From: Raja brachyura
Lineage: Eukaryota
NCBI GenBank assembly: GCA_963514005.1
Contig: OY740812.1
Location: 7,316,001 to 7,380,000 of the forward strand
Direction of reading: 5' to 3'
DNA length: 64,000 bases
The notes under the pieces were generated by a model that searched no databases, was not told the origin of the DNA, and saw only the letters and a program-made list of their open reading frames with translations. Made by a program: the position numbers and the translations under genes. Positions 8,451-64,000 of the stretch are shown piece after piece; within the stretch, counting starts at the first letter, position 1, and every line of letters begins with the position of its first letter.

Positions 8451-9639
8451 ATTGCACATCGCTACGGTAAATGATCACAAAATTAGGGAGGATGTGTTTT
8501 CGGGGATAGGGAGGGCTTTTGCGAGACCACGAGGGAATGGTTTCTTTTGTGGAATAATCTAGAAGAGAAGTTCACTGCTTTCATGTCAGCAGCTCTCGAT
8601 TTAAGGTAGGACTGTAATTGACTTTATTCTCTGAGGGCTTTCAAAGTATTTCTTCAAAGGTCGATGAATATTTCTAAAGCAAGGTTGATAGATTCGTGAC
8701 AGGAATGGGGGATGTAAGGTTACCGCAGGTGAGCTTACATCAGTCACCATCTTATCTAATAAAAATACCTCAGGACCTTCTACTGCTCCTAACTTGCGTT
8801 CACATACTCCGTGGTTATTCAGCATGAACTAACTAAGTTCATAAGTTCATAATCTATAATGCAAATCTCCATTGACTTGGCCTCCACAGCCTACTGTGGC
8901 AATGAATTCCACATTTTCATCACCCTCTGACTACAGAAATGTATCTGTTGAGCAATGTTGGGCAAATGTAATATATGGGGTGCTGATTTTCATTGTAAGA
9001 AGCACTTTGAATCAGAACCAAGGGTTCTAGCACTGTTTTTATATTGCTAAGCTACATTTTCTGTGATTTATTGTGTTTAGTAAACAAGAGTAGACCACAA
9101 GGATGAAGCCAGTCTGGCTTATGCTTGGCAGCAGAATGCTGGGACTTAGTAGTGTGAGGCAACTTATTAAATTACATCTACCATTCTTCAGTCATTTTTC
9201 CAACAGCATTTCCCCTCTTCGCTCCAGAATGTAACAGTACTAACGTTGCAGAAACGTATTCAAAAGTCACCCTTGTGGGGTTTTAGGTATTGATCACAGA
9301 TATGATGGTGATTGTGTAGGAGGGAACTGCTGAAGCTAGTTTACACCGAAGATAGACACAAAATGCTGGATTAACTCAGCGGGACAAGCAGCATCGCACA
9401 CAGAGAGTGGTGAGTCTGTGGAATTCTCTGCCTCAGAGGGCGGTGGAGGACGGTCTCTGGATACTTTCAAGAGAGAGCTAGATAGGGCTCTTAACGATAG
9501 CAGAGTCAGGGGACATGGGGAGAAGGCAGGAACGGGGTACTGATTGGGGATGATCAGCCATGATCACATTGATTGGCAGTGCTGGCTCGAAGAGCTGAAT
9601 GGCCTACTCCTGCACCTATTGCCTATTGTCTTTTGTCAT

Positions 9640-10366
9640 CCCTGGATAGAAGGAATGGGTGACGTTTCGGGTCGAGACCCTTCTTCAGACTCGGGGGAGA
9701 GGGAGGCACAGAGATGTGGAAGGGTAAGGTGTGAAAAGGAGAGATCACAGGGGACGAAGCTCAAGGAAAATATAAAAATCGATCACTGTCAGCGAGGGGA
9801 AGGTGACAATGAGGTAAACAAAGATTAAAAAATTCAGGAGGACAGTCAGACTAGTCAGAGAACTAGTATGGGGGAGGGATGGAGACAGAGGGTAAGCAAG
9901 GGTTAGGTCATAAGGTCATAAGTGATAGGAGTAGAAATAGGCCATTTGGCCCATCAAGTCTACTCTGCCATCATGGCTGATCTATCTCTCCTTCCTAACC
10001 CCATTCTCCTGCCTTTTCCGCATAACCTCTGACACCCGTACTAACCAAGAATCTATCTATCTGTGCCTTATAAATATACATTGACTTGGCCTCTGCAGCC
10101 TTCTGTGTAGAATGTACTAACTCCATGCAGACAGCACCCACAGTCAGGATCAAACTCTGGTCCCTGGTGTTGTAAGGCAACATCTCTACTGTTAGATGTC
10201 TGTGCAACCATTAAATCTGGAGAACAGTTGAAACTTTCCAAATCCCTATCTCAGCCTTAAAAAGATCCGCTGACTTGGCCTCTACAGTCTTCTGTTATTT
10301 ACTGAAGTTAGAGAAGTCAATGTTCATACCGCTGGGTTGTAAGCTGCCCAAGCGAAATATGAGGTG
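9640..10366 (-). mobile_element. Neptune PLE 3' fragment (endonuclease C-terminus, 3' UTR and hammerhead-like core) split by a CR1 composite at 9906-10295
   Basis: 10298-10366 minus translates HLIFRLGSLQPSGMNIDFSNFSK, matching the end of the endonuclease at 63508-63855; UTR collinear with 54795-55140. Confidence 0.8.
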
Positions 10367-12686
10367 AAGCAGGTTTGATCTTTGAACGCTGCTTGAGGTG
10401 TCCATGGTAGCCGTCAACTATTTGGTACAGTGATGACTGATCACTCTGCATGTACTGAGTCTCGTTAAATTCATTTTACTGCCTACATTTCTGATCCAAG
10501 AATAAATGTGATACAGCTGATGCAATTTGGAGCCATATCTGGAGATTCTCAAGATAGACACAAAATTCTGGAGTAATTCAGCGCCACTGGAGAGAAGGAA
10601 TAGGTGACGTTTCGGGTTGGAACCCTTCTTCAGACTGGAGATTCTGAATTGTGTTATCTTAGTTGTGGGATAGAGAGTTAATTGTGAAGTTTGCAATTAT
10701 AGACAACCACAGCAAACAGGAAAATGTATCCCTATGCAGGAAAGGAGGTGCACGGAACTGCAGATGCTGGTTTGCCAAAAAAAACACAGAATGCTGGAGT
10801 ATCTCAGCAGGTCAGGCAGCATCTCTGGAGAAAGTGGACGGGTGACGTTTCGGATTGGGACCCTTTCTTAGACTGAAGGGTCTGGATCCTACTGACCCAA
10901 AACATCCCCAACCCATGTTCTCCAGTGATGCTGCGTGATCTACTGACTTACTCCAGCATTTTGTGTCTTTTTTCCGCAATGGAGGAAATCCTATTGGCCG
11001 AGTGAACTGTGTCAATCATTTTGCATTGAACAGATTGTCAACATAATGGAGATGGAATGGCTTTTTACTTCATAGTCTTGTAACTTTTGTCATGTATGTT
11101 ATGCAGCTGAAGATCAAAGGTGGTTGCTTCTTGGTCATCCTGCTATATTTAACCACATCTGTGGTTCCAACCAAAGCTGCTATGGCACTGGTAGTAGATC
11201 TGTCACTGACTGTCCATTTTTTCTATTGTTCAGCACTGAGACAAATAAGATAAGATTGAGATCAGGGCGTATATGACTTGGATGAATGATTAAGTATGCA
11301 GATGACACAAAATTTGATGGAGTCATCGAAAATGAGGAAGGTTGTTTAAAGGTTGTTTAAAGATACAGGTGGAAGATCGATCAGCCATAAATTTGGGTGG
11401 AGCTGTGGAAGATGGAATTTAATTTAGATACGTCTGAAATGATGCACTTTAGAAGGTCATATAGAGATAAATGACAAGGACCTGAGGAATGTTGATAAAC
11501 AGGATGCAAGCATCTCTGTCCTCATTTTTTTTTTCAACCTCTCAGTTCACCCCTGAGCCTCTTACACTTCAGGGAACGCATTTCCAGCCTATCCTGTGCA
11601 GGAAGGAACTGCAGATACTGGTTTAAACCGAACATAGACACAAAATGCTGGAGTAACTCAGCGGGACAGGCAGCATCTCTGGAGAGAAGGGATAGGCGAC
11701 GGGTCTCGAAACATCAGCCTTCCCTTCTCTCCAGAGATGCTGCCCCTCCCGCTGAGTTACACCAGCATCTTGTGTCCATCTCCAGCCTATCCTATCTCTC
11801 CTCATAACGCAAGTCACAGCAACATCCTTGTGAATCTTATCTTCCCCACCTCTTTCATATTGTATGGCGACCCAAACTACACACAACATTCTCAGCAACA
11901 TCCTACACTGCCTTAACAGGAGGAGAGAGGCTAGCATGCATCTATGTCACAACTGAACAATATAAGAGCTTAGTATTTTGAAAATGAATAATTCCATAAA
12001 TCTATTAATTTAAGGTGTGTTAACTGATTTAATTCTTGTCTTTCACCATTAACATATTATGAATCTATTGCCCTCTCCTTCTCGTTGAGATAAATATTCC
12101 TTTCATATCTGCAAAGCACTGGTTACTCAGGAAATTTGCCAGGGCGTTACAGGGGTTGAGTAGTTATGTCTATTTCAATCTCCCCTTGTAATTGTTTCTT
12201 CCAGGGACCAAATATTTCCAGGCAGTCAGCCATCCGACAATAAAACGCTAAAAATAAAATCAACTGATTGCTGGAAGACTCTTCACCATGTTCTTCATGA
12301 ACCCTGATTAACTTAAAGGGATGTTCTCCAGGGGAGAGTGGCTTTGCCCGAGTATAGACAATAGACAATAGGTGCAGGAGTAGGCCATTCAGCCCTTTCA
12401 GCCGGCACCACCATTCAATGTGATCATGGCTGATAATTGCACTCCCGTCTCCGAGTCAGAAACTGAAGGGTTAACATCGCACTACACCCACTCCGTGGTT
12501 GGAGATCAGATTATGGCTTCCCAAATATTACGATGTCATCCAGGGGGAGACTTGGATCTGGATGGAAGCTGTATCACCTTGGTGGTAGCTATTCTATCTT
12601 CTAGGCAGAATATATGAAATTGGGCTCTAACATACTCTCCAGAGCTCTCAATATTAGTTTGTTGGCCAGTGGGGCTGCATGAATCT

Positions 12687-12945: not shown

Positions 12946-15105
12946 CATAGTTAGTTCTGCTAGGTAGTTAAAAGACATAGGGAGAGGTGCGTGGATAGGA
13001 CAGGTTTTGAGGGAGGTGGGGCTAGCGTAGATGGAGCATCTTGGTTGGCATGTACACATTGGGCCAAAGGACATGTTTCTGTGCTGTATGACTCTATGGT
13101 CCTGATGGTCCATAATTTAGATCTAGTGATGATCTAGGAGTAGCAATGATGTCTGACCTGGAGATGAACCTGTACTTCCCACATGCCTCATGTTTATGTC
13201 TTCCTCAGTCTCAATGGTGAGAGAAGCTGGAGCAGGAGCCTTTTTTGGTCAGTTGCTTTGCTGCAGAGACTACTGACTTGCCAGAAATCAAGGAATTATG
13301 ATATTTTGCCAAGTCAGAAGATTTTATGACTTGGAACGGAAGTTGGGTTTTTGAAGGTTTGTTTTGGAACTCTCTCTTATCATTTCTAACCTTCCACTGA
13401 AATAACGTCACGCTGTGGACTGGCCCCTTGTGCCGAGAGTTCTTCATGCCAGCGTGTGTCAGAGGAGGAGATCTGTAAAAGTCCAATAATCTGGGACTCC
13501 CTGGACTACGTGGACAGGTGGGGTTTGTGGACTATTGGAATTTACTCTTATTAATACCCCACGCACGTTTAAAGTTTTTTTTTTGCATGGTAGCTAGCAA
13601 TATCAAAAACTTTCCAGTTTAGAGGGAGTGCAGGAAACTGTGCCTCCATAACTGTAGAGGGGGCAGGGAAACACGATCTCTGTGAGTTTAGAGAGGGGCA
13701 GGGAAACAGCACCAAGTGCCAAACCATCAGGGTTTACTAGCATGGAGACACGAGGAGCTACAGATGATGGAATCCTGCGTAAAACACAAAGTGCAGGAAT
13801 AACAATGGGTCAGGCAGCATCTCTGGAGGACATGGTTAGGCGGTGTTTCAGGTCAGAGCCCTTCTTCAGATTGGCGAAGGGTCCCGACCCGAAACAACTC
13901 CTACCCACGTCCTCCAGCGATGCTGCCTGACCGGTTACTCCAGCAGTTTGTGTTCTACACATGATTTACTAACAGCTGGAGAGTGAATGATTTAGAGTTT
14001 TATTCTAGTTTGTTGGTAATGTAGCAATTAGCAGGGCAAGTTACCAAGGTGTACTGAGCTGCTAGAGTGTATTTACGATGATCTCACCTGCCTTGGAGTA
14101 TTTTAGTAAGGCAGAGCTTCCAGTTCCACGTAGCATCTTAAGGGCGTGCTACAGGGATGTCATGGTACATTCTGCACGTATGCTGTGAGGTTGTAAGCAT
14201 ACCGTATGCATCTGACAATAAATGTAATTTGAACTTGAACTTGTTATGTGAGGGCCCGCTGGAGCAGCAAAAGCAGAATCAGTTTATATGCACCATTTCA
14301 TGAGAGGTAATTTGAGATATGATATCTTCTTGGTAGATTGCCTCGTTTGAATCAGCATTTATTGGTGCAGCAATTATTGCCTCATAGCTCCAACGAACCA
14401 GGGTCAATTCTGACTTTGGATGTTGTGATGCACAAGGTTCCATAAATTATGCCATTGTCATTTCTACACAGTAATGACATGGGCCACTATCTGATGCTTC
14501 CTGTCTATAATCTGGAAACTGGAGGACCTCAATGAGTCAGGCAGCATTGTGGAGGAAATGGACATTCCTGGTTAGGACACTTGGAGTTGTTGAGAGAAAT
14601 CTGGAAAAAAGAGTTAGATGGATCACTTTCAGAGCTTTGCCCCACCGCATCTCACTTTTCCGACTTTGTTAACCCCACCAGTCTGGGGAAGTGACCTGAT
14701 CCGAAAGGACATCTGTCCATTCCCTCCACAGATGCTGCGTGACCCGCTGAGTTCCTCCAGCCTTTTGTGTTTTCCTCAAGATTCCAGCATCTGCACTTCC
14801 TCTTGTATTGATAATCTGGAAACACAACAGCACACCTCCCTAGGCAGAGGCAGGGGGGTGTATCATCCATCAGGCAGGGCGAAACCACTGTGTAGGAAGG
14901 AACCACAGATGGTGGTTAAAACGGTTCGGGTCACGATCCTTCGTTTCTCCAGAGATGCTGCCTGTCCCACTGAGTTCCTCCAGCATTTTGTGTCCATCCA
15001 GGGCTATACCATCATTTGCCTGTTGATTTAGTGTTGGCCCTTTGCAATGGAATTCCCATAATCTAGCTCTTTATCTTTCCAGACCCGTTCCGCATGTTCG
15101 TCTAA

Positions 15106-20022: not shown

Positions 20023-20159
20023 TGTTAAAGAAGGAACTGCAGATGCTGGAGAATCGAGGGTTACACAAAAAGCTGGAGAAACTCAGCGGGTGCAGCAGCA
20101 TCTAAGGAGCAAAGGAGATAGGCGACGTTTCGGGTCGAGACCCTTCTTCAGACTGCTTG
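20023..20159 (-). mobile_element. Neptune 3'-end unit, young subfamily B, solo copy with 15-bp TSD
   Basis: ACAATAAGATGCTTG at 20008-20022 and 20160-20174; about 2 mismatches versus 63152-63283. Confidence 0.85.
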
Positions 20160-23106: not shown

Positions 23107-25539
23107 CACTTGCTCCACACATCGCCATTAAACTTACCCCCTCTCGCCTAATATCTATGCCCTCTAGTGTTGGGCGTTTCCACATTGGGAAAAACGGGTC
23201 AGTCTGAAGAAGGGTCTCGACCCGAAACATCACACATTCCTTCCCCCCAGAGATGCTGCCTGTCCCGCTGAGTTACTCCAGCATTGTGTGTCTATCTTTT
23301 ATGGGAAGGAACTGCAGGTGCTGGTTTACACCGAAGATAGTTCTGACTGTCGACCCTGTTGTGGTTAGAGAGAGGAAATTAGGTTGCATAAAAGAGTGAA
23401 TTAGCGGTGGCATTAGCGGCTTTGACATTTTTCTATTTGGATGGATGTTTTATATCTTGCGTGCGTGTGCTGTTGGCAGCTTGGGAACGTACTGTTATGT
23501 ACTGGTTGAACAGGACTGACAACCCAGAAACCTTCCAAGGGTTAATCAGTCGTTGAATTGCTGTGAGCTCCACACCTGCGATTCCAGTCTCACAGTCCAT
23601 GGCAGACGATCAGATTTACCATCAGGTGCCACGGGACCACCTTCCACGGGCAACTGTGCATGGCATGGGCAGTAAATCCAGAAAATATTTGAAGACTTGT
23701 GCAAAGGAGGAGGAATTTTCCAGGTCAATATCTCTAAAACCGCATTGACAGTCTGTGCTTGGATATTTGGGTAAGTAGAGTTAAGATCAAAGGTAGACAA
23801 AAATGCTGGCGAAACTCAGTGGGTGAGGCAGCAACTATGGAGCGAAGGAATGGGTGATGTTTCGGGTCGAGACCCTTCTTCAGACTGATGTGGGGTTGGG
23901 GGGGGGGTGACGGGAAGAGGAAAGGAAGAGGCGGAGAGCTGGGAAGGGGCTGGGAAGGATGGAGAAAGAAAGGGAAAGCAAGATCAAGATCAGAGATGAT
24001 CAAAGTCAGTGGTAATGTGTAGGAAGGAACTGGTCTAAATCGAAGATAGACACAAAAAGGTGAAGTAACTCGGCGGGTCAGGCAACATCTCTGGAGAAAA
24101 GGAATTGGTGGCATTTCGGGTCAGACAGTCTGAAGTAAGATGGGTCTCGGCCCAAAATGTCACCTATTGCTTATCTCCAGAGATGTTGCCTCACCCTCCG
24201 AGTTACTCCAGCTTTTTGTGTCAAATCTTCAAATTAAATAATAGAACAGGCTCAATGGGCTGAATGGCTGACCACTGTGTTTGTGTTGTCAAAACCACGT
24301 AGCAATGCTGCACCTATTTAGTGGAGAGGTTTTCTCGTCCAATTCTCTACCGTGTTTTTGTACAAGTTTTCTTGTGAAATGGTGCTTTTGACAAGCAACA
24401 GCTCCACATTTAAAACTTGCACAAAGGATTTTGGTTGGAATGGGTGTGATTCTAAAGCAGGTTCCCCCACTTTTCATTCCACTCTTCTGCAATGTGAAAG
24501 GGAGGTCCAAGGAGTTCCCCTCCATTTATCAGTTCGGTTGCAAGTGGCGGAAATCTAGTTCAGAATCTCACGCACCATTGCTGCAGAATGAAAAGTACAG
24601 TCAATTATCTTGTGTAGACTGAGTTTTGTTTGACGGTTGTTATGGTTTGTTTTTTTCCCCACCCAGTATGAATGGACTTTGTATAACTTTCTCCAAAAAC
24701 TCAGCATTAGGTTTCTCGTGTATTTATCTGAAGACTTGCATGAAACGCACCACTAACTCTTTTCCTGCCAACGCACTGTCAGAGCATACAAAAATATTTA
24801 TCGAACTTTAATCAAATCATTAGCAGGAATAATTGCGGTGGCAGGAAAGATACGGTCACGAAAGGTGGACGCTTTTTTTCTAATGAATGCCCATTCCGCC
24901 CTTACTTAACACACGCCTGATGTTCGCTTAGTATCAAAGGTCATGGGGAGAAGGCAGGAGAATGGGGTTGAGGGGGAAAAGATCAGTCGTGATAGAATGG
25001 CGGAGTAAACTCGTTGGGCTGAATGTCCTAATTCTGCCCCTAGAAGTTATGAACTTATGAACCAATGTGGTAACTTTCCGGGGCATCGACATGTATCTCT
25101 TCAAGGCTACTGCAGCAATATCTTCCACAAAGAGCTGAGGGCAATGGACGTGCCGAGACCGATCATGGGCAATGGAGGGGACTGGGACACAAAATGCTGG
25201 AGTAACTCAGCGGGACAGGCAGGAGAGAAGGAATGGGTGACGTTTCAGGTCGAGATTCTTCTTCAGGAGGGGATCGGGAGCCGCTCCTGTAGAACAAACA
25301 CGCGGTAATCCGGACTTTATGAAAGGGTGCCAAATATGGCAGAACTGGCATTATATGCAAAATGCATTTCGCTGTGTAATTTAATTGCATAAGTGACGAT
25401 AAATATATATTGAGCCATTGGGAATACCAGACCCTACAGGTTCCCCTCTGAGTTGCATATGGTCCTGAATTGGAAAAATGTTCCAGCGTTGATCTAAATC
25501 CAGGTACAGTTGGAGCTTTTTTTCTTTGGAACTGGTAGA

Positions 25540-37873: not shown

Positions 37874-38761
37874 TATCCCACTTTCACATCTACTCCTTAC
37901 ACTAGAGGGGCAATTTACAGAAGTCAATGAACCTACAAAGCTGCACGTCTTTGGGATGTGGGAGGAAACTGGAGGACCCAGAGCAAACCCACATGGTCAC
38001 AGGGAGAACGTGCAAACTCCACACAGGCAGCACCTGAGGTTAGGACCAAACATGTCTCTCTCTCTGTCTGTCAGTCTGTCTGTTCATCTCCCTCTCCCCT
38101 CTCCCTCTCCCTCTCCCCCTCCCCTTCCCACACACACACTACTGTGACTCCAGGCACTCAGCTACAACTTGTTGCTCTGCTTCCGTCTGGATGAGTTCCA
38201 CATAAACGTTGGTTTTACTGCCGTCTTCTCACAATTACTTGATTTATTTTGAATATTTCCAGAAAAACAATAGATCTGAGCTTTCAAAGTCCAGGAGCCA
38301 GAACAATCATCTCTACCTGAACTGACACTCGGGTTAAAGGAAAAATAAAAGTTTGAATGATGAAACCAATCCACTTTTCAGAGCAGGAAAGGAATTCAGT
38401 GGGAGGAAGCAATGAAGCAAAACTACCCTTTAGAATTTGTGACAATAGAACTGCCCATTTATTTTCAATAAAGTGAGTGCTGATGGTGAAATAGTCCTTT
38501 CCTGCCACGACTGGTGAGTTGCTAACTAATTACACTCAGTCTGAAGAAGGGTTTCGGCCCGAAACGTTGCCCATTTCCTTCGCTCCATAGATGCTGCCTC
38601 ACCCGCTGAGTTTCTCCAGCATTTTTGTCTACCTACAGTTTCTCAGTAGCTGGTTGAAATCACGGTGCTTCAGCCAAGATAGGAGGGAGAATTATTTGAG
38701 CACAATTTCACCGTCCATGTCTTCAGATCCACTGAAGCAATGCCCAGGACTCGGAGTGAAC

Positions 38762-39022
38762 GGGGCGGCTCGTTGGCGCTGCGGTAGAGTTGCTGCCTTA
38801 CAGCGCCAGAGACCCGTGTTTGATCCTGACTATGGGGGCTGTCCGTACGGAATTTGAACGTTCTCCCCGTGGGTTTGCTCCGAGATCTTCGGTTTCCTCC
38901 CACATTCCAATGACATACAGGTTTGTAGGTTAATTGGCTCGGTACAAATGTAAAATTGTTCCTTATGTGTGTCGGATAGTGTTAATGTGCGGGGATCGCT
39001 GGTTGGCCTGGACTCGGTGGGA
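38762..39022 (+). mobile_element. HE1/V-SINE
   Basis: Head and V-domain. Confidence 0.8.
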
Positions 39023-39253: not shown

Positions 39254-39385
39254 GTCTGAAGAAGGGTCTCGACCCGAAACGTCGCCTATCTCCTTCACTC
39301 CTTAGATGCTGCTGCACCCGCTGAGTTTCTCCAGCTTTTTGTGTAACCCTCGATTCTCCAGCATCTGCAGTTCCTTCTTTAACAC
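39254..39385 (+). mobile_element. Neptune subfamily-B unit inserted in a CR1 3' UTR; hammerhead-like core at 39256-39283
   Basis: CTGAAGA-A-GGGT-CTCG-ACCC-GAAA-C-GTC. Confidence 0.82.
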
Positions 39386-42158: not shown

Positions 42159-44362
42159 TTGCCTCAACCACCTTAAAACAATGTCCTCTGATTTGTGATT
42201 CCCCTGCTCTGGGTAAAAGACTGCACATTTACTCTGTCTATTCCTCCTATGGTGTTTTAAACCTCTATAAGAACACCCCTGTTCACCCTATCTATTCCCC
42301 ACATCATTTATACACCTCTTGATTTGGAAAGGCCAAGAGTTAAGACAGTGGCCAGATCTGTGAGAACACCACACCTCGATCAATGGTGTTTTATCATTAA
42401 TGTTTTATTATTATTAATGTTTAGTGTTTTCTGAGTCATTCGTAACTGTCACTGTATGTCATGTTGTTACTTGTGGGCGGAGCACCAAGGCAAATTCCTT
42501 GTATGTGAATACTTGGCCAATAAACGTACTTACTTACTCATCTTTTCTTCCCCAAACTCCCAATCCCCTCCCCTCCCTCCCCCTACCCTCTCCTCCCCAC
42601 CCCCGCCCCTCCTCCACTCCCTACCCATTCCCCACCCCCTCCCCACCCCTCCCCTCCCCCACACCTGGATGTCACCTCTCTGGGGCCACTGCCTGACCCA
42701 CCAAGTTACTCCAGCATTTTATGTCCGCCATCAAGAAACTAATCTCTTCTGTCCCTTTACGTACACAAGTTAACTATTCTGTTGGCTCCGATGATTCTTC
42801 CTTCACTTATCCAGTTGTGGTCGTGCAGCTGTTGCTGCCACAGTAACTGGAATGCCTCGCTGCTTAATCCAGCCACCAGCTGCTCGAAGGACCAGGTCTA
42901 AAATCAGAGCACAGGGTGTGTCACCAGCTTCACTTACACTTGGTGACTGAACATCACAACTGAATGGAAATCAACCTGCATTCCGTCCTTGCTCCCTTAC
43001 CCCTTCCCACTACCTCCCTGTGCCCTGACGGCAGGTTTAATTAAGGGCTGCTGCGCTTCCCGTTAGATGGATCGAACGACACATACTCCAGGGCCATGTA
43101 AGGATTTGCTCCCCCCTCCCCCCACACACACAGAAGTTCACTCAAACAACCAGCTTGTAGGTGATAAATAGTTTGCAAAACAGGGAAAAGGGCACTGCCA
43201 GTGAAGCTGATAGGGTGATGCTTTCACCCAAAGGAGGTAGTGGTGGGTGTAGGACATACAATGCAGATGACTAGGATTCTTGCCCATCCGCGTCACAACA
43301 GAGACCCAACTGGTTGCAGCATTTAAACCGCAGCACTGACGTTTGTTTAGAGCCATTAACTGTCTAAAATGGAAAGTGATCTTGGTGACTGTGGAAACTG
43401 GATCCAGGGGGTGTGTATGTGTTGGGGAGGGAGAGGAGGAGAGGGGGGGGAGGGGGGGGGGGGTGTTGGGTTGGTGTCTGGTGATGCTTTTGACCAGTGG
43501 CATCAGAATGCCATTCTCTTCATTCTCTTTGTTTTGGACGCCTCACTCTTTGGACAAGAAGGGAAACTAGGAACCACCGCTGCTCAAGGAGAGAGTAAAA
43601 GGTTGGTTCAAAGAAAAGGGGGTTTACAAAAAAGAGTTTGAATTACAGATTAGTTTATTGTCACGTGTACCGAGGTACAGTGAAAAGCTTTTGTCGCGTG
43701 CTATTCGGTCAGTGGAAAGACATTACATGATTACAATCGAGCCATTTACAGTGTATAGGTACATGATAAGGGAATAACGTTTAGTGCAAGGTAAAGCCAG
43801 CAGAGTTCGATCAAGGACAGTCCGAGGGTCACCAACGAGGTAGATAGTAGTTCAGGGCTGCTCTCTGGTTGTGAGAGATGGTGAGTAGAAACTTAGTCAT
43901 TCCAAGTTCAATGTTGGCGGGTGGACGCAGCCAAGATCAGAGGTATGTGTAGGACGGAACTGCAGATGCTGTTTTAAACCGAAGATAGACACAAAATGCT
44001 GGAGTAACCAAGCGGGTCAGGCAGCATCTCTGGAGAGAAGAAGTAGGTGACGTTTCGTGTTGGAACCCTTGTACAGACTGAAGTCAGAGGTATGTGTCTG
44101 AAGGAACTGCAGGTGCTGGTTTAGACACAAAATGCTGGAGTAACTCAGCGGGACAGGCAGCATCTCAACCCGAAACGTCACCAATTCCTCTCCAGAGGTA
44201 TGTCAGATTAAGGGGCGAGATATGGATATTATGTTATGGATATAGATATTACCGGATAGAGAGGTGTGGAGAGAATCCAACAAGGAACAAAAATCTTTTT
44301 TTAATTCCTTTGTAGCTTCTAGACTGCTTTGGATCAGGTGGTTTGGGTAATACTGTTCCCAT

Positions 44363-49528: not shown

Positions 49529-49659
49529 AAAATGATGAATGACGAGTGACTCCAGATTCTCACCAGGGTTCTTTGCCCTGAATCGTTGCCTCTGTTTCTC
49601 TTTCCGCAGATGCTGCCTGACCTGCTTTCAGCTCGGACACCGGGCAGGTTTCCAAGATT

Positions 49660-49703
49660 TTCAGTTTTTCCTTCAATTTTTTTTTCTTCGTATTTTTCCG
49701 CAG
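49660..49703 (+). promoter_or_regulatory. Splice acceptor of the connexin coding exon
   Basis: Long T-rich tract ending CCGCAG at 49703, 55 nt before the ATG; usual connexin layout of UTR exon plus one coding exon. Confidence 0.7.
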
Positions 49704-49758: not shown

Positions 49759-50616
49759 ATGGGAGAATGGAGTTTCCTGAGCGAATGGCTGGACTCGATC
49801 AAGGAGCACGCCCCCATGCTGGGGCGTGTGTGGCTGCTTCTCATGATGATATTCCGCATTCTTGTCCTGGCCACCGTGGGGAGCGACATCTTCGAAGACG
49901 AGCAGGAAGAGTTTGCCTGCAACACACTCCAGCCCGGTTGCAAGCAGGTGTGCTACAACAACGCCTTCCCCATCTCGCCCTACAGGTTCTGGGTCTTCCA
50001 CATAGTATTTCTCTCAGTGCCGTCCTTGCTGTTTGTCGTCTATGCCGTCCACCTGTCCTCAAAGGACGAGGAGACACAAGAGAAGATTGGCATCATCAAA
50101 AGGAAGGAACCGGCCGGCAATGGCGTGCCAAGGATACAACAGTGTTACATTGTCCATGTCATCCTGCGGCTTCTGGCTGAAGTTGGCCTGGTTGTTTCCC
50201 AGTATTTGATTTTTGGCTTCACGATCGAGCCGCAGTTTATCTGCACGGGTTTCCCCTGCCCGCATATCGTGGACTGTTTTGTCTCCCGCCCAATGGAGAA
50301 GACCGTGTTTTTGATGTTTTATTTTGTGGTCAGCATCCTCTCCGCCCTGATCAGCTTCGTGGAGTTGGTGCACATAGTTAGGAAGATATGCAGCCGACAG
50401 CAACTAAAGACCTTTGAGCAGCAGAACCGGTCAAACAGTGACTACGAGAAGGGTCGAGAGCCACACTCGGTCCAGTTACTGGACAAGATGGTCATGGTGA
50501 ACCTTAGCTCCAACCACTCTGACATGGATTCTACTCACAAGACCAAGTCTTTGGGCAGTAGTAACAGTCGAAGATCTTCTCTATCGAGTGCAAAGAAACC
50601 TCCCCTCAACATCTAA
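49759..50616 (+). CDS. GJD3: Gap junction delta-3 protein (connexin 31.9 orthologue), 285 aa
   Basis: MGEW start in strong Kozak context (ACAATGG), 4 TM segments, E1 C-x6-C-x3-C and E2 C-x4-C-x5-C. GJD3-like strings FRILVLATVG, FEDEQEEF and YRFWVFHI. Lies downstream of TOP2A on the same strand, as in human. Confidence 0.9.
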   Translation: MGEWSFLSEWLDSIKEHAPMLGRVWLLLMMIFRILVLATVGSDIFEDEQEEFACNTLQPGCKQVCYNNAFPISPYRFWVFHIVFLSVPSLLFVVYAVHLSSKDEETQEKIGIIKRKEPAGNGVPRIQQCYIVHVILRLLAEVGLVVSQYLIFGFTIEPQFICTGFPCPHIVDCFVSRPMEKTVFLMFYFVVSILSALISFVELVHIVRKICSRQQLKTFEQQNRSNSDYEKGREPHSVQLLDKMVMVNLSSNHSDMDSTHKTKSLGSSNSRRSSLSSAKKPPLNI

Positions 50617-53272: not shown

Positions 53273-54794
53273 GAGAACAACCCCCTTCCCAAACCCTGTG
53301 ACCTTTGCCATCCATTGGCCATTGGGAGTGACCCCATTTGAAGGTTCCCCGCTGAGGCACACACCTTCCTGAGATAGCTCTGGAGGTTCCTCATATGACC
53401 CAATGGCTTGGTTTCTTACCAATCAGCCCTTTGGAAGCACCTTCGTCAGGAAGACCACAGGAGAGACGTTCTCCGCCTTCTTAGGGTCGGTTGGAGACGG
53501 TCAACAAGCACTGGCCTTTATCCAATAAAAAGGGGTGCACGGATTCACTTGTTTATGAAATCTTCTGGCTCGTTCTGTGAATATTGGGACAGAATGAAGA
53601 GGTCGTTTCACCAAGAAAGTACATACTTCCCTAGTTTCAGAAACTAAATATTTACAACTATTCCTGCAATAACACAGCACTTAGACAGCATATATCTTAA
53701 ATGATGGTCGAGGTTTAAACTCATTCCTCATTTTAATGTCTATAGTCAGAAGATAAACAGAACTAACTCCACACTATGACTAGAAGTGCAAGTCAGACTG
53801 GTAGTTCAGGTAGAGTCCTTCACTGTGGGAAGGTACCTTGGAGTTTAAGTGTGTTTGTTCTTTGGGACATTAAAGATTTCCAGGTACCTTGATCAACTTT
53901 GTTCATTTACCCATTTGCTTCCACGGTTAACTGATTCAATTCAGAGCAATCTAATATCTGCCCTCTTATCTTTACCTACTGGAGAATGTTTTCAATGCAA
54001 AAATCACTTCATTTGTTTCTTGAAAGAAAAGAAGCAAAGAGGCTTGGCACTCCACCACTCTGTGTCTTATTTTGTAAGTTATTCCAGCACTTCGTGTCTT
54101 TTCTTGCACTGTAGAGATGCTGCCTGACCTGTTGAGTTACTCCAGCACTTTGTGTCTATTTTTGTAAACCAATACCTGCAGTTCCTCGTTTCGTTATTTG
54201 TTCCTTGCATGTGACCAAATGCTGTCCAATTGCAACCTTGATCTTAATGTATAACGATATATTTTTTATCGACCTAGCGGTTTAGATATTTGTTCAGTTG
54301 TGAGGGATTGCCAACACTCTAGGACCATCCTGGAGTCTTTCAAAGATTCAAAGCTCCCACACACTCTTGTGAGAAGCCCAGGACCAAAATCAGAAGGTAT
54401 TAAAAAACTTGTTCCTACAAGATCACTTCAAACACTTTCTGCCTCAGTCATTATTGGGCAAAACAGGAGATAAAAGTACAAAACCTCCAAGAATTAGAAT
54501 TGGCAACTCTAGTTGATGGATTGTTGACATTGCCTGTTTGCAATGACTAATTTCACCATGGATTAGAAGGGCCGAGATGGCCTGTTTCCGTGCTGTAATT
54601 GTTAATTGGCTCTACTTTATCCTCTGCCACCTCTATGACCTACAGTTGCTCCTGGTCTTGGTTCCAATGGCACATTAACCTTTTTGAAAATCAATTGTCT
54701 CAATTTCAATTAAATAAAAACGTTGCCTTCGTGTTAAATTCCAATTGGCACTCATTTCTCTCTTTGAGGGAGCAACAGAGTAAAAACGACTTGC

Positions 54795-55332
54795 TAGACA
54801 CAAAATGCTGGAGTAACTCAGCGAGACAGGCAGCATCTCTGGAGAGAAGGAATGGGTGATGTTTTGGGTCGAGATTCTTCTTCAGTCTCTGAGAGTCAGG
54901 GGAGAGGGAGATAGAGGTGAAGGTGTGAAAATGGGGGAAAAGGGAATTGAGATCAAGGAAAATATATAATGGATCACTGTCAGCTGGGAGAAGGTGACAA
55001 GAAAGCAAACAGAGATAAAATGTAGTCGGAGACAGTCAGACTAGTTGGAGAACTGGGAAGGGAGAGGAATGGAGAGAGAGGGAAAGCAAGGGTTACTTGA
55101 AGTTAGAGAACTCAATGTTCACACTGCTGGGGTGTAAGCATTCCCTTTGCCCTATTTTCACACCATCACACTTATATCCCCCCCACCCCCCTAATGTCAG
55201 TCTAAAGAAGGGCCTCGATCCAAAACGTCACCCGTTCCTTCTCTCCAGAGATGCAGCCTGTCCCGCTGAGTTACGACAGCGTTTTGTGTCTATCTTTGGT
55301 TTAAACGGGCATCTGCAGTTCCTTCCTGCCCA
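54795..55332. mobile_element. Neptune PLE: long minus-strand 3' fragment followed by an inverted plus-strand unit
   Basis: About 55092-55138 minus reads LHPSSVNIEFSNFK*; second arm 55140-55332 in opposite orientation. Confidence 0.8.
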
Positions 55333-56893
55333 AACTACTTGCTCCTATTTTAGAAGAAAGCCATTTTATAATCTGGGGAAGAATGCGATGACTCAGCAAT
55401 CTCTGAGGAATTCGCAGGAAGTTACTGCAAACGTCCAAATATGGAAAGGACTTGCATGTGAAATAGGGAAAGACTTAGTTGTTCCCTTTAAAGTTCAATG
55501 CATCAGCCTTGCTTCAGGTTAGCGAAAGACCATCATCAATTTCAGGATTAAGCACTGCGCAACTGGAAAATCTCCACTTTGGACTCAGATGTTGACAGAG
55601 TGATGTAATGTTCTCCCAGGAAACGGACTATTGTTCTGTGATATCGATCTGCCCTTCATTTATCCCGCTCTGTGACAAGGAACCAGTTCAATCAAGAGCT
55701 CGGTCCCTTGTATCTGGATTTCAGCATTTTCCATTGTGTGAAGGGATATTGAAACAGTATTTCTCCCTGACATTTCAGCTCACATCCCCTGTCTCTTCCT
55801 CGGCCACTCGACTGCCCTGGAATATAAAAAAGCAAAACAGAACCGCAGATGTAAATCTGAATTAAAAATTAAAAAGTTTCTTGAATTGAAACATGTACTC
55901 TGTCCCTCCTTAAATGCTGCCTAACTTGTTCAACTTTAACTTGTTTCAACTTTGCCGGTGTGAACTTGGTGGGCCGAAGAGCCTGTTTCTCTACAAAACA
56001 AACAAAAAGTCAGTTTGAGATCTTCTTTCCCTTAGGCAACTCAGTCAGTGTGATGAACACGCCCAGTGTTCAAACCTAGCTTTTGGGCTCGGTCACAAGT
56101 GTTGCCCTCAGGATCTGCTTCCTGCAAATTGGCTGTGAAAATATAGAACCGGTGTGAATGGGTGATCAATGGTTGGCATGGGCTCAGCGGGCCGAGGGGC
56201 CTGTTTCAATGTTGTATCTCTAAACTAAACTTTTCACGTCCAATCCCAGGAAACTGACAGGAACTGCGACACTGAATGAGATCTTTATTATTGCCCATAA
56301 GACATAGAAGCAGAATTAAGTCGTTCTGCTCATCGAGTCTGCTCTGCCATTCAATCATGTCTGATCTATCTTTCCCCCTCAACTCCATTCTCCTGTCTTC
56401 TCCCCGTAACCTTTGACATCCTTACTATTCGAGAACCTATCAATCTCCACTTTAAAAATACCGAATGACTTGGCCTCCACTGCCGTCTGTGGCAATGAAT
56501 TCCACAGATTCGCCACCCTCTGGCTGAAGAAATTCCTCCTCATCTCCATTCTAAAGGCACGTCCTTTTATTCTGAAACTGTATCCATAATCACAATAACT
56601 GTTTCAACGTCCCAACATAACTTTGAGTGTGTAATGGTGATGCATATTTTAATGGTTTTATACATGTTATATGTATTTTTATACAGAGAGTAATGTTTAT
56701 ATGAATTCCTTACACTAAAGTTGTCTGCCTTTAAAATTAAACTGATATTTGATCAATTATATTTCTTTCATTGAGGTTAACGACCTGACACTTGTTTAAA
56801 GTATTTAAACAAATTGAATATAGTTCCAATATTACCACAAATTCATTATTAAAAGATAGATAATTTAAAGGAAACAATATTAGAACTAATTAG

Positions 56894-57115
56894 TTAAAGA
56901 AGGAACTGCAGATGCTGGAGAATCGAGAATTACACAAAAAGCTGGAGAAACTCAGCGGGTGCAGCAGCATCTAAGGAGCGAAGGAGATAGGCGACGTTTC
57001 GGGTCGAGACCCTTCTTCAGTCTGAAGAAGGGTCTTGACCCGAAACGTCGCCTATCTCCTTCGCTCCTTAGATGCTGCTGTACCCGCTGAGTTTCTCCAG
57101 CTTTTTGTGTAACCC
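56894..57115. mobile_element. Near-perfect palindromic dimer of Neptune subfamily-B units, 14-bp TSD
   Basis: Axis at 57021 (CTTCAG-T-CTGAAG); TTAGAACTAATTAG at 56880-56893 and 57116-57129. Confidence 0.9.
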
Positions 57116-57230
57116 TTAGAACTAATTAGGATCATCTGCCATTAGCATTTCCACTTCCACCAGTTCTACCTTCCCACTCTTGAGACCACCAAGTCTCCAC
57201 CCGGGGCCGAGAGTTATCGACGATCTACTG

Positions 57231-57446
57231 GTTAAGAGCTTAAGAAGGAACTGCAGATGCTGGAAAATTGAAGGTAGACAAAAATGCTGGAGAAACTCAG
57301 CGGGCGAGGCAGCATCTATGGAGTGAAGGAAATAGGCAACGTTTCGGGTCGAGAAGAAGGGTCTCGACCCGAAACGTCGCCTATTTCCTTCGCTCCATAG
57401 ATGCTGCCTCGCCCGCTGAGTTTCTCCAGCAATCTTGTCTACCAAT
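57231..57446. mobile_element. Palindromic dimer of Neptune subfamily-C units
   Basis: Opposed arms; GATCTACTG at 57222-57230 and 57447-57455. Confidence 0.85.
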
Positions 57447-57805
57447 GATCTACTGATGATGATTATTTACTGTGTAGGAAGGAACTGCAGATGCTGGTTT
57501 AAACCGAAGATAGACACAAAAAGCTGGAGCAGCTCAGCGTCTGAAGAAGTGTCTCGGCCCAAAACGTCACCCAGTCCATCTCTCCAGATGCTGCCTGTCC
57601 CGCTGAGTTACTCCAGCATTTTGTGTCTATCTTGTTTATTTACTGTCAGCTGTCAGTCAGGGCAGGACTCTTGTTTCAAGCAGCTGCAACTTCAGCTGAC
57701 AAGACCCAAATCTCTGGAGTTCCCTCAAAAGCCTCTAAAGGAGGGAAGTCTTCCTTTACGAGTTGCCTTGAAACATACGTCAAGTGCTTGGTCTGCTGTA
57801 CTTCC

Positions 57806-62502: not shown

Positions 62503-63151
62503 CTCTTTAACTTGCCACTGAGGCAGTCGGTCTTGAAAAGCAACAAGTCCTTACCTGTGCACAAACCTTTAAACTGCTCTGGTGGCTCCTCGCTGCTGCT
62601 AAGACGATCAGGCCTGAAAAACCCGGACAATTTTAACCCATCAAGTGAGGGTTAAAATAATACTGACTAAAATTTGAAAGATGACAGTCAAAGATGAAAC
62701 AACATATTCCTGTAGAAACAAGAGACTGCAGATGCTGGTTTACAAAATAGGACACAAAATATTAACTCAGTATATCAGGCAGCATCAGGTAGACTGAGGA
62801 AGGGTCTCGACCTGAACCGTTACCTATCCATGTTCTCTGGAGAAGCTGCCTGACCTGCTGAGTTACCGCAGCACTGTGATATATATTTCTGTACGTATAT
62901 CACCTGATTCCAGACACAAACCAATCCTTGAATCACTACTGCTCCCTACTGCAAGAGAAAAGGGATTACAATTTTCATCGTGGAAAACAGTGAATGGTAG
63001 TGGCACCCAAACGATATTATGGAACTTAAAACAGCGTGTCTTTCTACACAAGAGACCGCAGAGGCTGGTGCTGAAGCCAAAAAGCAAACTGCTGCAGAAA
63101 CTCAGCGGGTGAAACAGCATTCCAGTTCAGTAAAAACAAATAACTGCAAAT

Positions 63152-63857
63152 TGTTAAAGAAGGAACTGCAGATGCTGGAGAATCGAGGGTTACACAAAAA
63201 GCTGGAGAAACTCAGCGTGTGCAGCAGCATCTAAGGAGCGAAGGAGATAGGCGACGTTTCGGGTCGAGACCCTTCTTCAGACTGGTCAGGGATCAGGGAA
63301 GCGAGAGATATAAACAGTGATGTGGAGAGATAAGGAACAATGAGTGAAAGATATGCAAAAAAGTATTGGTGATAAAGGAAGCAGGCCATTGTAAGCTGTT
63401 TGTGGTGTGAAAATGAGAAGCTAGTGCGACTGGGGGGGGGAGGGGAGATGGAGAAGGAATGTCAGGGCCAGAGGGCTGAGGGAGAGGTGGGGGGGAGGCA
63501 GTCTGGGTTAACAGAATTGAGAAAATTCAATGTTTAAGCCCAGAGGATGCAGACTCCCCAAGCGGAATATGAGGTGCTGTTCCTCCAACTTGCGGTGTTG
63601 ATCACTCTGGCCGTGGAGGAGGCCCAGGACCGAGAGGTCGGATACGCAGTGGGAGGGGGAGTTGAAGTGCTGAGCCACCGGGAGGTCGGGTTGGTTATTG
63701 CGGACCGAGCGGAGGTGTTCGGCGAAACGATCGCCCAGCCTCCGCTTGGTCTCACCGATGTAGATCAGCTGGCATCTGGAGCAACGGATGCAGTAGATGA
63801 GGTTGGAGGAGGTGCAGGTGAACCTCTGTCGGACTTGGAATGACTGCTGGGGTCCAA
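63152..63857 (-). mobile_element. 5'-truncated Neptune-clade Penelope-like element (GIY-YIG endonuclease, 3' UTR, subfamily-B end)
   Basis: Contiguous endonuclease frame, pyrimidine-rich UTR and hammerhead-like core at 63253-63280. Confidence 0.9.
63508..63855 (-). CDS. GIY-YIG endonuclease domain of the PLE, 115 uninterrupted codons, no start codon (5'-truncated)
   Basis: GPQQSFQVRQRFTCTSSNLIYCIRCSRCQLIYIGETKRRLGDRFAEH...VAQHF...RKLEEQHLIFRLGSLHPLGLNIEFSQFC*; LIY-CxxC-YIG with Arg, His and Glu of the PLE endonuclease. Confidence 0.85.
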   Translation of the reverse strand, partial: GPQQSFQVRQRFTCTSSNLIYCIRCSRCQLIYIGETKRRLGDRFAEHLRSVRNNQPDLPVAQHFNSPSHCVSDLSVLGLLHGQSDQHRKLEEQHLIFRLGSLHPLGLNIEFSQFC

Positions 63858-64000
63858 CTGCAAATGTTGGTTTATACCAAAGTCAGATGTCAGTGGAGGT
63901 CAGGATCAAACCGCTGGTGCTGTGAGGCAGCAGCTCTACCCGCTGCACCACTGCAAAGAGGAAGGCAATCTTTCGGATAATAATCCTACAACAGGACGTC

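What the first reader, a model, noticed from the sequence alone, without database searches (positions are those of the whole stretch)
39254..39385. More than 30 short Neptune-derived units carry a minimal hammerhead-ribozyme-like core
Seen: a roughly 130-bp unit recurs about every 2 kb (e.g. 2866, 10553, 20023, 23199, 38537, 39254, 46372, 47003, 48022, 63152), and its 5' edge very often falls just before CTGAAGA-A-[stem II]-GAAA-C-GT(C/T). Stem II varies but keeps its pairing: GGGTC-TC-GACCC, GGGTT-CC-AACCC (compensatory, near 10610), GGGT-TTCG-GCCC (near 38549), GGGTC-CC-GACCC (near 13879). Known: CUGANGA/GAAA/NUH is the hammerhead core, PLEs carry minimal hammerheads with palindromic short stem III that cleave as dimers, and an extra A between A9 and G10.1 occurs in the CChMVd hammerhead. 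Inference: ribozyme-bearing mini-elements have amplified heavily here. Caveat: helix I is only 2-3 bp in these copies, so activity is unproven.
Basis: partly seen in the sequence, partly recalled or inferred. Interest (0 to 1): 0.75.

Follow-up and report, generated by a model that had tools for sequence, protein, structure and literature searches.

The report
Hammerhead-tipped jumping-gene stubs in skate
These repeats are short, mostly decayed end-pieces of a Penelope-type jumping gene, likely from a skate, that carry a known tiny self-cutting-RNA motif, and they tend to begin right in front of that motif, likely because the element's RNA starts there rather than because it is cut there.

Summary
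The repeat is real: 61 arms in 64 kb. It is the pseudo-LTR plus tail of a Neptune-type Penelope-like element. A 98% identical copy runs 5' into a GIY-YIG endonuclease frame, and 19 of 25 insertions tested have target-site duplications. The motif is the minimal hammerhead described in Penelope pseudo-LTRs in 2014. Distant relatives carry it at the same place, with covarying helices.

Only 10 of 61 arms keep an intact core, and core CpG sites decay freely. The 'compensatory' stem II change is not a true pair. The fold is disfavoured and helix I is 2 bp.

The clustered 5' edge is also real: 23 of 61 arms start within 6 nt before CUGA and none at the cleavage site. Loose ends in four sequencing runs agree. 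So cutting does not make the edge. The best explanation is inferred: reverse transcriptase runs off the 5' end of an RNA that starts at a TATA/Initiator-like site just before the hammerhead.

The scan found the same hammerhead kind earlier in a shark element. Known kind, with one testable twist.

The parts
39254..39384 (+). Solo pseudo-LTR plus tail of a young Neptune subfamily, 5' edge at -2 from C3. It sits inside another repeat (a CR1-like tail; label recalled) and has no adjacent target-site duplication.
39254..39285 (+). Minimal type-I hammerhead motif. Helix I GU/GC (2 bp within the element), CUGAAGA 39256-39262, extra A 39263, stem II 39264-39267 with 39272-39275 (4-nt loop), GAAA 39276-39279, palindromic ACGU, predicted cut after C17 at 39283.
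39351..39384 (+). Optional ~34-nt tail: absent from one arm of most inverted pairs; likely the span between two RT start sites.
   Evidence: PMC11167929, PMC3846280
63152..63855 (-). Long 5'-truncated copy of the same subfamily (98.5% to the 39254 unit), with a 10-bp target-site duplication. It links the unit to the PLE ORF.
63511..63852 (-). Open C-terminal GIY-YIG endonuclease frame, 114 aa (P0001). Best homologues are from skates; 69 of 94 homologues have the CX2-5CxxC linker.
63279..63314 (-). Candidate core promoter (inferred): TATA-like TTTATAT at -34 to -28 and Initiator-like CCAGTCT with A at -3 from C3. The same stretch also reads as a polypyrimidine tract plus CAG.
   Evidence: consensus motifs recalled
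56893..57117 (.). Head-to-head inverted pair joined at the CAG-(A/T)-CTG quasi-palindrome (57021), tail on one arm only, 14-bp target-site duplication.
20024..20155 (-). Solo unit with intact core and a 15-bp target-site duplication.
38535..38634 (+). Tail-less solo unit of another subfamily (UUCG loop, GUU cut triplet), intact core, 715 nt upstream of the 39254 copy on the same strand.
9637..10387 (-). Second-subfamily copy with the endonuclease C-terminus and 3' UTR, interrupted by an insertion of other repeats.
54793..55330 (.). Inverted pair with longer arms (-255 and -62), tail on one arm, 12-bp target-site duplication with one mismatch.

Best explanation
The units are target-site-duplicated, mostly decayed 3'-end copies (pseudo-LTR plus optional tail) of Neptune-type Penelope-like retrotransposons that carry the known minimal hammerhead motif, and their sharp 5' edge likely arises when the element's reverse transcriptase runs off the 5' end of an RNA predicted to start just before that motif. 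Shown: the link to a GIY-YIG frame, the duplications, two alternative 3' ends, a tail on one arm of inverted pairs, the edge cluster at -6 to 0, and no edge at the cut site. From literature on one other PLE: the protein nicks and extends both DNA strands and starts reverse transcription at two internal sites just downstream of the hammerhead; the ribozyme needs protein and is dispensable for insertion in vitro. Inferred: transcription from a TATA/Initiator-like site puts the hammerhead at the 5' tip of the mRNA. RT starting at about +93 or +128 in this 5' copy yields a 95-135 nt run-off cDNA that is inserted alone (solo unit) or joined to a second cDNA through the CAG-(A/T)-CTG microhomology (inverted pair). 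RT starting in the 3' pseudo-LTR gives the rarer long, randomly truncated copies. The hammerhead is under selection in master elements, likely cutting the leader off or processing tandem transcripts with protein help or as a dimer. Inserted copies are passengers.
For: PLE link: GIY-YIG PF01541 at 23.4 bits, cut-off 22.6; homologues up to E 5e-49 from skates; linker in 69 of 94. Duplications: score 8 or more in 19 of 25 insertions against 6 of 300 random pairs. Tail on exactly one arm in 10 of 12 inverted pairs, on both arms in none. Edge hazard 14% per nt at -6 to 0 against about 1% per nt at +1 to +50 and 0.6% per nt further upstream. Four runs show loose ends piled at -2 (63282: 472, 79 and 48 contigs in X1, X15, X17; agreement 0.31-0.36, median length 107-255) and at -4 (63284: 745, 748, 175, 104). 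Joints from five upstream sites land on 63280-63284. An AT-rich TATAT-like island lies near -30 in four long copies (63280, 55202, 30295, 16848; TCTAT and ACAT in two others). In a distant family TATAAA lies about 5 nt further upstream, and three short copies start at -6, -9 and -10. Sense-strand hammerheads follow the endonuclease in 21 of 59 distant loci, antisense in 0; helix I and II covary.
Against: No transcription start was observed; the runs are contigs and their RNA status is a guess. Edges spread over -6 to 0 rather than one base, and several solo copies keep bases upstream of the predicted A(-3). In the distant family only 3 of about 15 non-endonuclease-side copies start near the predicted site (those loci were chosen for having the endonuclease). 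Other distant families show no TATA before the hammerhead. In D. virilis the start site is about 126 nt upstream of C3, with an intron ending just before the hammerhead (PMC2377424, PMC4209133). Loose ends at -4 are partly other subfamilies' upstream sequence. Edges were read by eye and paired arms are not independent.
Confidence: 0.55

Rival explanations
1. Same elements, but the edge comes from the cDNA snapping back or self-priming at the CAG-(A/T)-CTG quasi-palindrome. The hairpin is either copied through (inverted pair) or opened (solo edge at -6 to 0), whatever the transcription start.
For: Inverted junctions centre on -1 (57021, 10871). A 6-nt inverted stub sits inside the duplication at 44076. 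Arms of a pair are usually the same subfamily, and 24137/24134 share private variants. Palindromes at PLE inverted junctions were read as self-priming in PMC3846280.
Against: The stem is only 3-4 bp with a 1-3 nt loop and needs the cDNA end already free of the RNA. It does not explain joints from upstream sites landing on the same edge. At least five pairs join inside the core instead (11725, 24137, 39882, 57365, 44212).
Confidence: 0.2
2. The polypyrimidine tract plus CAG just before CUGA is a 3' splice site, as for the D. virilis intron that ends at helix I. Bound splicing factors or a splicing intermediate stop the RT there.
For: A long pyrimidine tract and CAG at -4 to -2 in the long copies. 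D. virilis precedent. In the Takifugu, Tetraodon and cichlid rows of Fig. S3 an AG lies 2 nt before CUGA.
Against: Many short copies keep the CAG, so they are not spliced products. Loose ends are heterogeneous, not one shared exon. None of the 15 joints shown is GT-AG, and the 63284-63557 joint follows an AGTCTG microhomology and occurs in DNA runs too (350 rows were hidden). The distant Neptune loci lack the AG.
Confidence: 0.12
3. The units are non-autonomous, ribozyme-processed mini-elements (non-LTR retrozymes) amplified from tandem or circular RNAs by hammerhead cleavage.
For: Head-to-tail joins with a period of about 160-170 nt appear in run X17 (table 5c). Such tandem derivatives of PLE pseudo-LTRs are described, including in one chondrichthyan (bioRxiv 2026.07.22.740005).
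Against: Cleavage would put the edge at +28; 0 of 61 arms start at +28 to +31. No tandem of two intact cores exists in the window. The dimer fold is 15-20 kcal/mol above the cofold minimum, and stem II is almost never formed in the full unit. Long copies of the same subfamilies exist with the ORF end. In the preprint 8 of 9 tested dimers did not cleave.
Confidence: 0.1
4. The hammerhead likeness is a dead relic or chance match in skates, with no activity even in master elements.
For: Helix I is 2 bp in all 3 skate variants against 3-6 bp in 8 of 9 distant ones, and the core is predicted to be paired away by a downstream pyrimidine run. No Rfam hit.
Against: All core positions are kept in the majority sequence of the window's subfamilies. 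The 2 bp of helix I are kept as GU/AC or GU/GC. The same core sits at the same place in distant relatives with covariation. D. virilis also has a 2-bp helix I.
Confidence: 0.1

Closest known systems
Minimal hammerheads (min-HHR) in pseudo-LTRs of metazoan Penelope-like elements (Cervera and De la Pena 2014, PMC4209133)
   Same: CUGANGA, an extra nucleotide, G10.1-C11.1 stem II, GAAA, palindromic 15.2-16.2, NUH; located after the endonuclease; mostly solo and genome-wide; reported in Neptune elements of fishes.
   Different: Helix I is 2 bp, at the short end of the published range (usually 3-5 bp; 2 bp in D. virilis). No cartilaginous fish appears in Table S1 or Fig. S3 as read. No clustering of 5' ends at the motif was seen in the parts read.
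Poseidon element PAc of Anolis carolinensis (Frangieh et al. 2024, PMC11167929)
   Same: Hammerhead followed about 100-130 nt later by two alternative 3' ends 30-40 nt apart (the tail); uncleaved RNA as the insertion substrate; both DNA strands extended.
   Different: Different clade (no CX2-5CxxC linker). In PAc the ORF starts at stem II; the ORF start here was not located. No run-off edge before the hammerhead is described in the main text (supplement not read).
Penelope pseudo-LTR architecture in Adineta vaga and D. virilis (PMC3846280, PMC2377424, PMC8557442)
   Same: Inverted head-to-head pseudo-LTRs with palindromic junctions, optional tail on one arm, 8-15 bp duplications, solo pseudo-LTRs, TATA/Inr-like motifs in the pseudo-LTR.
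   Different: Here short solo and inverted units outnumber long copies and carry their own duplications, so they are insertions rather than recombination remnants. The D. virilis start site is further upstream.
Non-LTR retrozymes (bioRxiv 10.64898/2026.07.22.740005)
   Same: Non-coding, hammerhead-bearing, derived from PLE pseudo-LTRs; monomers dispersed.
   Different: Defined by tandem units each with a complete hammerhead; none in this window, though tandem joins appear in run X17.

Membership tests
Penelope-like element (EN+) | C-terminal GIY-YIG endonuclease with CCHH motif upstream of the repeat | tested here: met
   P0001 hits PF01541 above cut-off; C24, C27, H62, H68 conserved in alignment A1.
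Penelope-like element (EN+) | Telomerase-like RT in the same ORF | tested here: inconclusive
   No RT is left in the window. Homologues P0057 and P0074 (about 890 aa) carry PF00078 with this endonuclease at the C-terminus.
Penelope-like element (EN+) | Pseudo-LTR with optional 30-40 nt tail, inverted 5'-truncated copy, target-site duplication | tested here: met
   Tail on one arm in 10 of 12 pairs; duplications in 19 of 25 insertions.
Neptune clade | CX2-5CxxC linker before a C-terminal endonuclease (shared with Nematis, absent in Penelope/Poseidon) | tested here: inconclusive
   The window copy is cut just after the linker. 69 of 94 homologues have it, including the skate proteins P0002 and P0004. 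Only Neptune and Poseidon were found in vertebrates in the 2026 preprint. No RT tree was built.
Minimal type-I hammerhead (min-HHR) | Core CUGANGA(H), GAAA, NUH with stem II and palindromic 15.2-16.2 | tested here: met
   10 of 61 arms intact; shuffles give 0.02.
Minimal type-I hammerhead (min-HHR) | Helix I and II supported by covariation | tested here: met
   14 sequences: 94.9% of cells paired, 26 double-sided changes, 0 of 500 shuffles as high, slid controls 17-45%. Stem II pairing was required when picking the distant loci; helix I was not. Within the window alone there is no true compensatory change.
Minimal type-I hammerhead (min-HHR) | Self-cleavage after H17 (as dimer or protein-assisted) | not testable with these tools
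   Needs an assay; predicted folding is unfavourable.
Rfam hammerhead families | Score above gathering threshold | tested here: not met
   0 matches in the window; not rerun at E-value threshold.
Non-LTR retrozyme | Tandem repeat with a complete hammerhead in two or more consecutive units | tested here: not met
   The closest same-strand intact cores are 715 and 945 nt apart in separate insertions.
Non-LTR retrozyme | Copies bounded by the cleavage site, circular RNA | tested here: not met
   0 of 61 arms start at +28 to +31; circular RNA not testable.

The most novel reading that the evidence does not exclude
Skate Neptune mRNA starts at the first base of the hammerhead, and the element's internally initiating RT turns that 5' tip into a strong-stop-like cDNA that is inserted directly. 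This would make a SINE-sized repeat family, here nearly 9% of the window, out of an autonomous element's own leader with no non-autonomous master. It would explain PLE inverted pseudo-LTRs as two run-off cDNAs joined end to end, and it would place the hammerhead where a cut removes the cap-bearing leader.
Probability: 0.4. Interest if true: 0.6.

Novelty: new member of a known kind. Interest (0 to 1): 0.3.

Why it matters
The hammerhead itself is known and most copies are dead, so as a ribozyme discovery it is ordinary. What remains is a very large natural record of PLE insertion products. The PLE cycle is still unresolved: how inverted pseudo-LTRs form and what the hammerhead does. The sharp edge 1-6 nt before the core, and the absence of an edge at the cut site, make the run-off, fold-back and splice models directly testable with one genome tally and one 5'-end experiment. 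For annotation, such 130-bp units in skate genomes should be labelled Neptune pseudo-LTRs rather than SINEs or host ribozymes.

Tried and rejected
No whole genome was available, so no genome-wide histogram or covariance model was built. Rfam gathering search: 0 hits. Exact-pattern scans for the skate motif found nothing in metagenome, viral or prokaryote genome contigs. The viral scan with the endonuclease alignment gave 2 weak unrelated loci, not used. The first automated 5'-edge measure (minimum over references) was noisy and was replaced by anchored extension and a curated table.

In-window covariation was rejected as evidence. A splice joint was looked for and not seen among 15 of 365 joints shown. 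An ATG frame at +48/+49 is open in some subfamilies and closed by TAA in others, and no homologue contains a similar peptide, so the ORF start is unplaced; one search was translated one base off. Folding z-scores of seven units were -2.1 to +0.5, not significant overall. L080 did not fit the parser and was left out of alignment A2. Contig depth is not copy number and is used only as a hint.

Lunse et al. (PLE hammerheads cleaving as dimers) was not available and is known here only by its title and the review's summary. The scan's sequence look-up found nothing.

Full report
1. Observation. At 39254 the sequence reads GT-CUGAAGA-A-GGGU-CUCG-ACCC-GAAA-CG-UC-GC. An iterated nhmmer profile finds 61 arms on both strands, 8.6% of the window. 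Twelve head-to-head pairs bring this to at most 49 insertions; one hit (49573) is weak. A full minimal-hammerhead descriptor finds 10 intact cores against 0.02 in 50 shuffles; 8 have helix I of 2 bp or more. So the repeat and the motif are real, but most copies are damaged. Among 27 ungapped arms, G12 reads A in 6, position 16.2 reads A in 5 and 11.1 reads T in 4, all CpG sites. Stem II is 4 bp with a 4-nt loop (CUCG, CCCG, UUCG, UCCA); the resemblance to YNMG tetraloops is recalled, not tested. Rfam found nothing at gathering score.

2. What it is. The copy ending at 63152 on the minus strand is 98.5% identical to the 39254 unit. It continues through a 230-nt pyrimidine-rich stretch into an open 114-residue frame that matches GIY-YIG above Pfam's cut-off. 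Its best homologues are proteins named from Leucoraja erinacea and Rhinoraja longicauda, so the host is likely a skate. 69 of 94 homologues carry the CX2-5CxxC linker just before the matched region. This linker marks Neptune and Nematis and is absent from Penelope/Poseidon (PMC8557442, passages). A second subfamily shows the same endonuclease end at 9637-10387 and 54793-55139. Target-site duplications score 8 or more in 19 of 25 insertions tested, against 6 of 300 random pairs; 39254 itself has none. Copies end either near +93 or near +128. In 10 of 12 inverted pairs exactly one arm has the extra ~35 nt, and in none do both. This is the published PLE pattern of pseudo-LTR, optional tail and inverted 5' copy with a palindromic junction (PMC3846280, passages; PMC8557442).

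3. Is the hammerhead real? As a conserved motif, yes. Cervera and De la Pena 2014 (PMC4209133; main text parts 1-2 of 4 and supplement parts 1-2 of 3) describe this consensus in PLE pseudo-LTRs, including Neptune of fishes. They found it mostly as solo copies, inactive as monomers and weak as dimers. I saw no cartilaginous fish in their Table S1 or Fig. S3. In 80 metagenome loci with a related endonuclease (the best 80 of 510), 59 had at least 350 nt downstream; 21 of these have a sense-strand minimal hammerhead about 95-160 nt after the match, and none an antisense one. In an alignment of 4 window variants and 10 distant ones, 94.9% of cells pair and 26 cells change on both sides; 0 of 500 shuffles reach this and slid controls give 17-45%. 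Stem II was required when picking the distant loci, helix I was not, and its two inner pairs hold in 14 of 14. Against activity: the skate helix I is 2 bp, the dimer fold lies 15-20 kcal/mol above the cofold minimum, and in five full units stem II has a probability of 0.01 or less. For the Anolis element PAc the hammerhead cleaved only with protein present, core mutants still inserted, and no RNA-seq reads began at the cut site (PMC11167929, parts 1-2 of 4 and passages; supplement not read). In a 2026 preprint 1 of 9 Xenopus dimers cleaved (bioRxiv 10.64898/2026.07.22.740005, parts 1-3 of 5; supplements closed).

4. The 5' edge. With edges read by eye, 23 of 61 arms start at -6 to 0 relative to C3, 9 further upstream, 14 at +1 to +27, none at +28 to +31 and 15 later. 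The loss rate is 14% per base in that 7-nt window against about 1% per base before it and 0.6% after it. Paired arms are not independent and old copies blur the downstream edges. Contigs of four public runs laid on 63130-63880 agree. Loose ends pile at 63282 (-2) in three runs and at 63284 (-4) in all four, with long, heterogeneous overhangs; those at -4 partly reflect other subfamilies. Summed depth drops 3.5- to 10-fold just upstream of the core, but only 1.4- to 2.7-fold against the subfamily-specific tail, and it is not a copy number. Joints from 63370, 63385, 63557, 63566 and 63738 all land on 63280-63284, also in DNA runs; none of the 15 shown is GT-AG, and 350 were hidden. Cleavage after C17 would give an edge at +28, so the ribozyme does not make this edge.

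5. Mechanism. The simplest reason for a free cDNA end at one place is the end of the RNA. Long copies have an AT-rich TATAT-like island near -30 in an otherwise pyrimidine stretch and a YYAGTCT Initiator-like motif with A at -3 (both consensus motifs and the 30-nt spacing are recalled). In one distant family TATAAA lies about 5 nt further upstream, and three short copies start at -6, -9 and -10, but about 12 others do not. PAc shows that a PLE protein extends both target strands and starts RT internally at two sites bounding the tail. Putting these together (inference): an mRNA starting at about -3 has RT start sites only 95-130 nt from its 5' end. Run-off cDNAs from there give solo units. Two of them, primed from opposite strands at the two start sites, can anneal through AG-(A)-CT and give the inverted pair with one tail. 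Initiation in the 3' pseudo-LTR gives the long copies. I put about 0.95 on the PLE identity and about 0.55 on this account of the edge. Fold-back at the palindrome (0.2), a block at a 3' splice site (0.12), retrozyme-type amplification (0.1) and a dead relic (0.1) are the rivals, and they are not all exclusive. In D. virilis the start site lies about 126 nt upstream, with an intron ending before helix I (PMC2377424, passages), so the skate arrangement would differ from it.

6. Novelty. The element class, the motif and the tail and inverted architecture are known. An earlier report of this scan reached the same view for a shark element (e1-7857333). I found no paper describing clustering of PLE 5' ends at the hammerhead or a run-off origin for solo pseudo-LTRs. 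Lunse et al. was not available, the review PMC6765202 was read in passages, and unread supplements may bear on this. Verdict: new member of a known kind, interest 0.30; the run-off reading has probability 0.4 and interest 0.6 if true.

Noticed in passing
window 49759-50616 (+): Single-exon connexin coding frame (PF00029, E 3e-74) with a splice-acceptor-like site near 49703. A weak, old Neptune-like hit at 49573-49626 contains a second similar acceptor-like site near 49609.
   Followed up: partly
window 39303-39368 (+) and other copies: Downstream of the hammerhead, AGAUGCUG can pair with CAGCAUCU in the tail, enclosing the short 3' end in its loop. Pyrimidine runs at about +35 to +50 and at the tail end can pair with the CUGAAGAAG core and may hold the ribozyme off.
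   Followed up: partly
window unit positions +48 to +128: The spacing between two CCAGC blocks is mostly 21 or 24 nt across subfamilies, keeping an ATG frame that is open in some subfamilies and closed by TAA in others.
   Followed up: partly
window 56893-57650: Three separate inverted pairs within 760 bp, each with its own target-site duplication: a local insertion hot spot.
   Followed up: no
run X17 contigs on window 63153-63284: Head-to-tail joins with 26-36 pyrimidine-rich letters between units, period about 160-170 nt, suggest tandem retrozyme-like arrays in a related organism (table 5c).
   Followed up: no
L011-family loci (e.g. L011 3951-4100, L019, L030): Distant Neptune family with two 3' ends near +90 and +145, so a tail of about 55 nt, longer than the 30-40 nt usually cited.
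   Followed up: partly
window 23299-23345: A tail-less copy is followed directly by an inverted piece of tail sequence.
   Followed up: no
window 38760-39020 and about 25 other places: Abundant SINE-like and CR1/L2-like repeats (labels recalled; copies seen); several Neptune units sit inside them or are interrupted by them.
   Followed up: no
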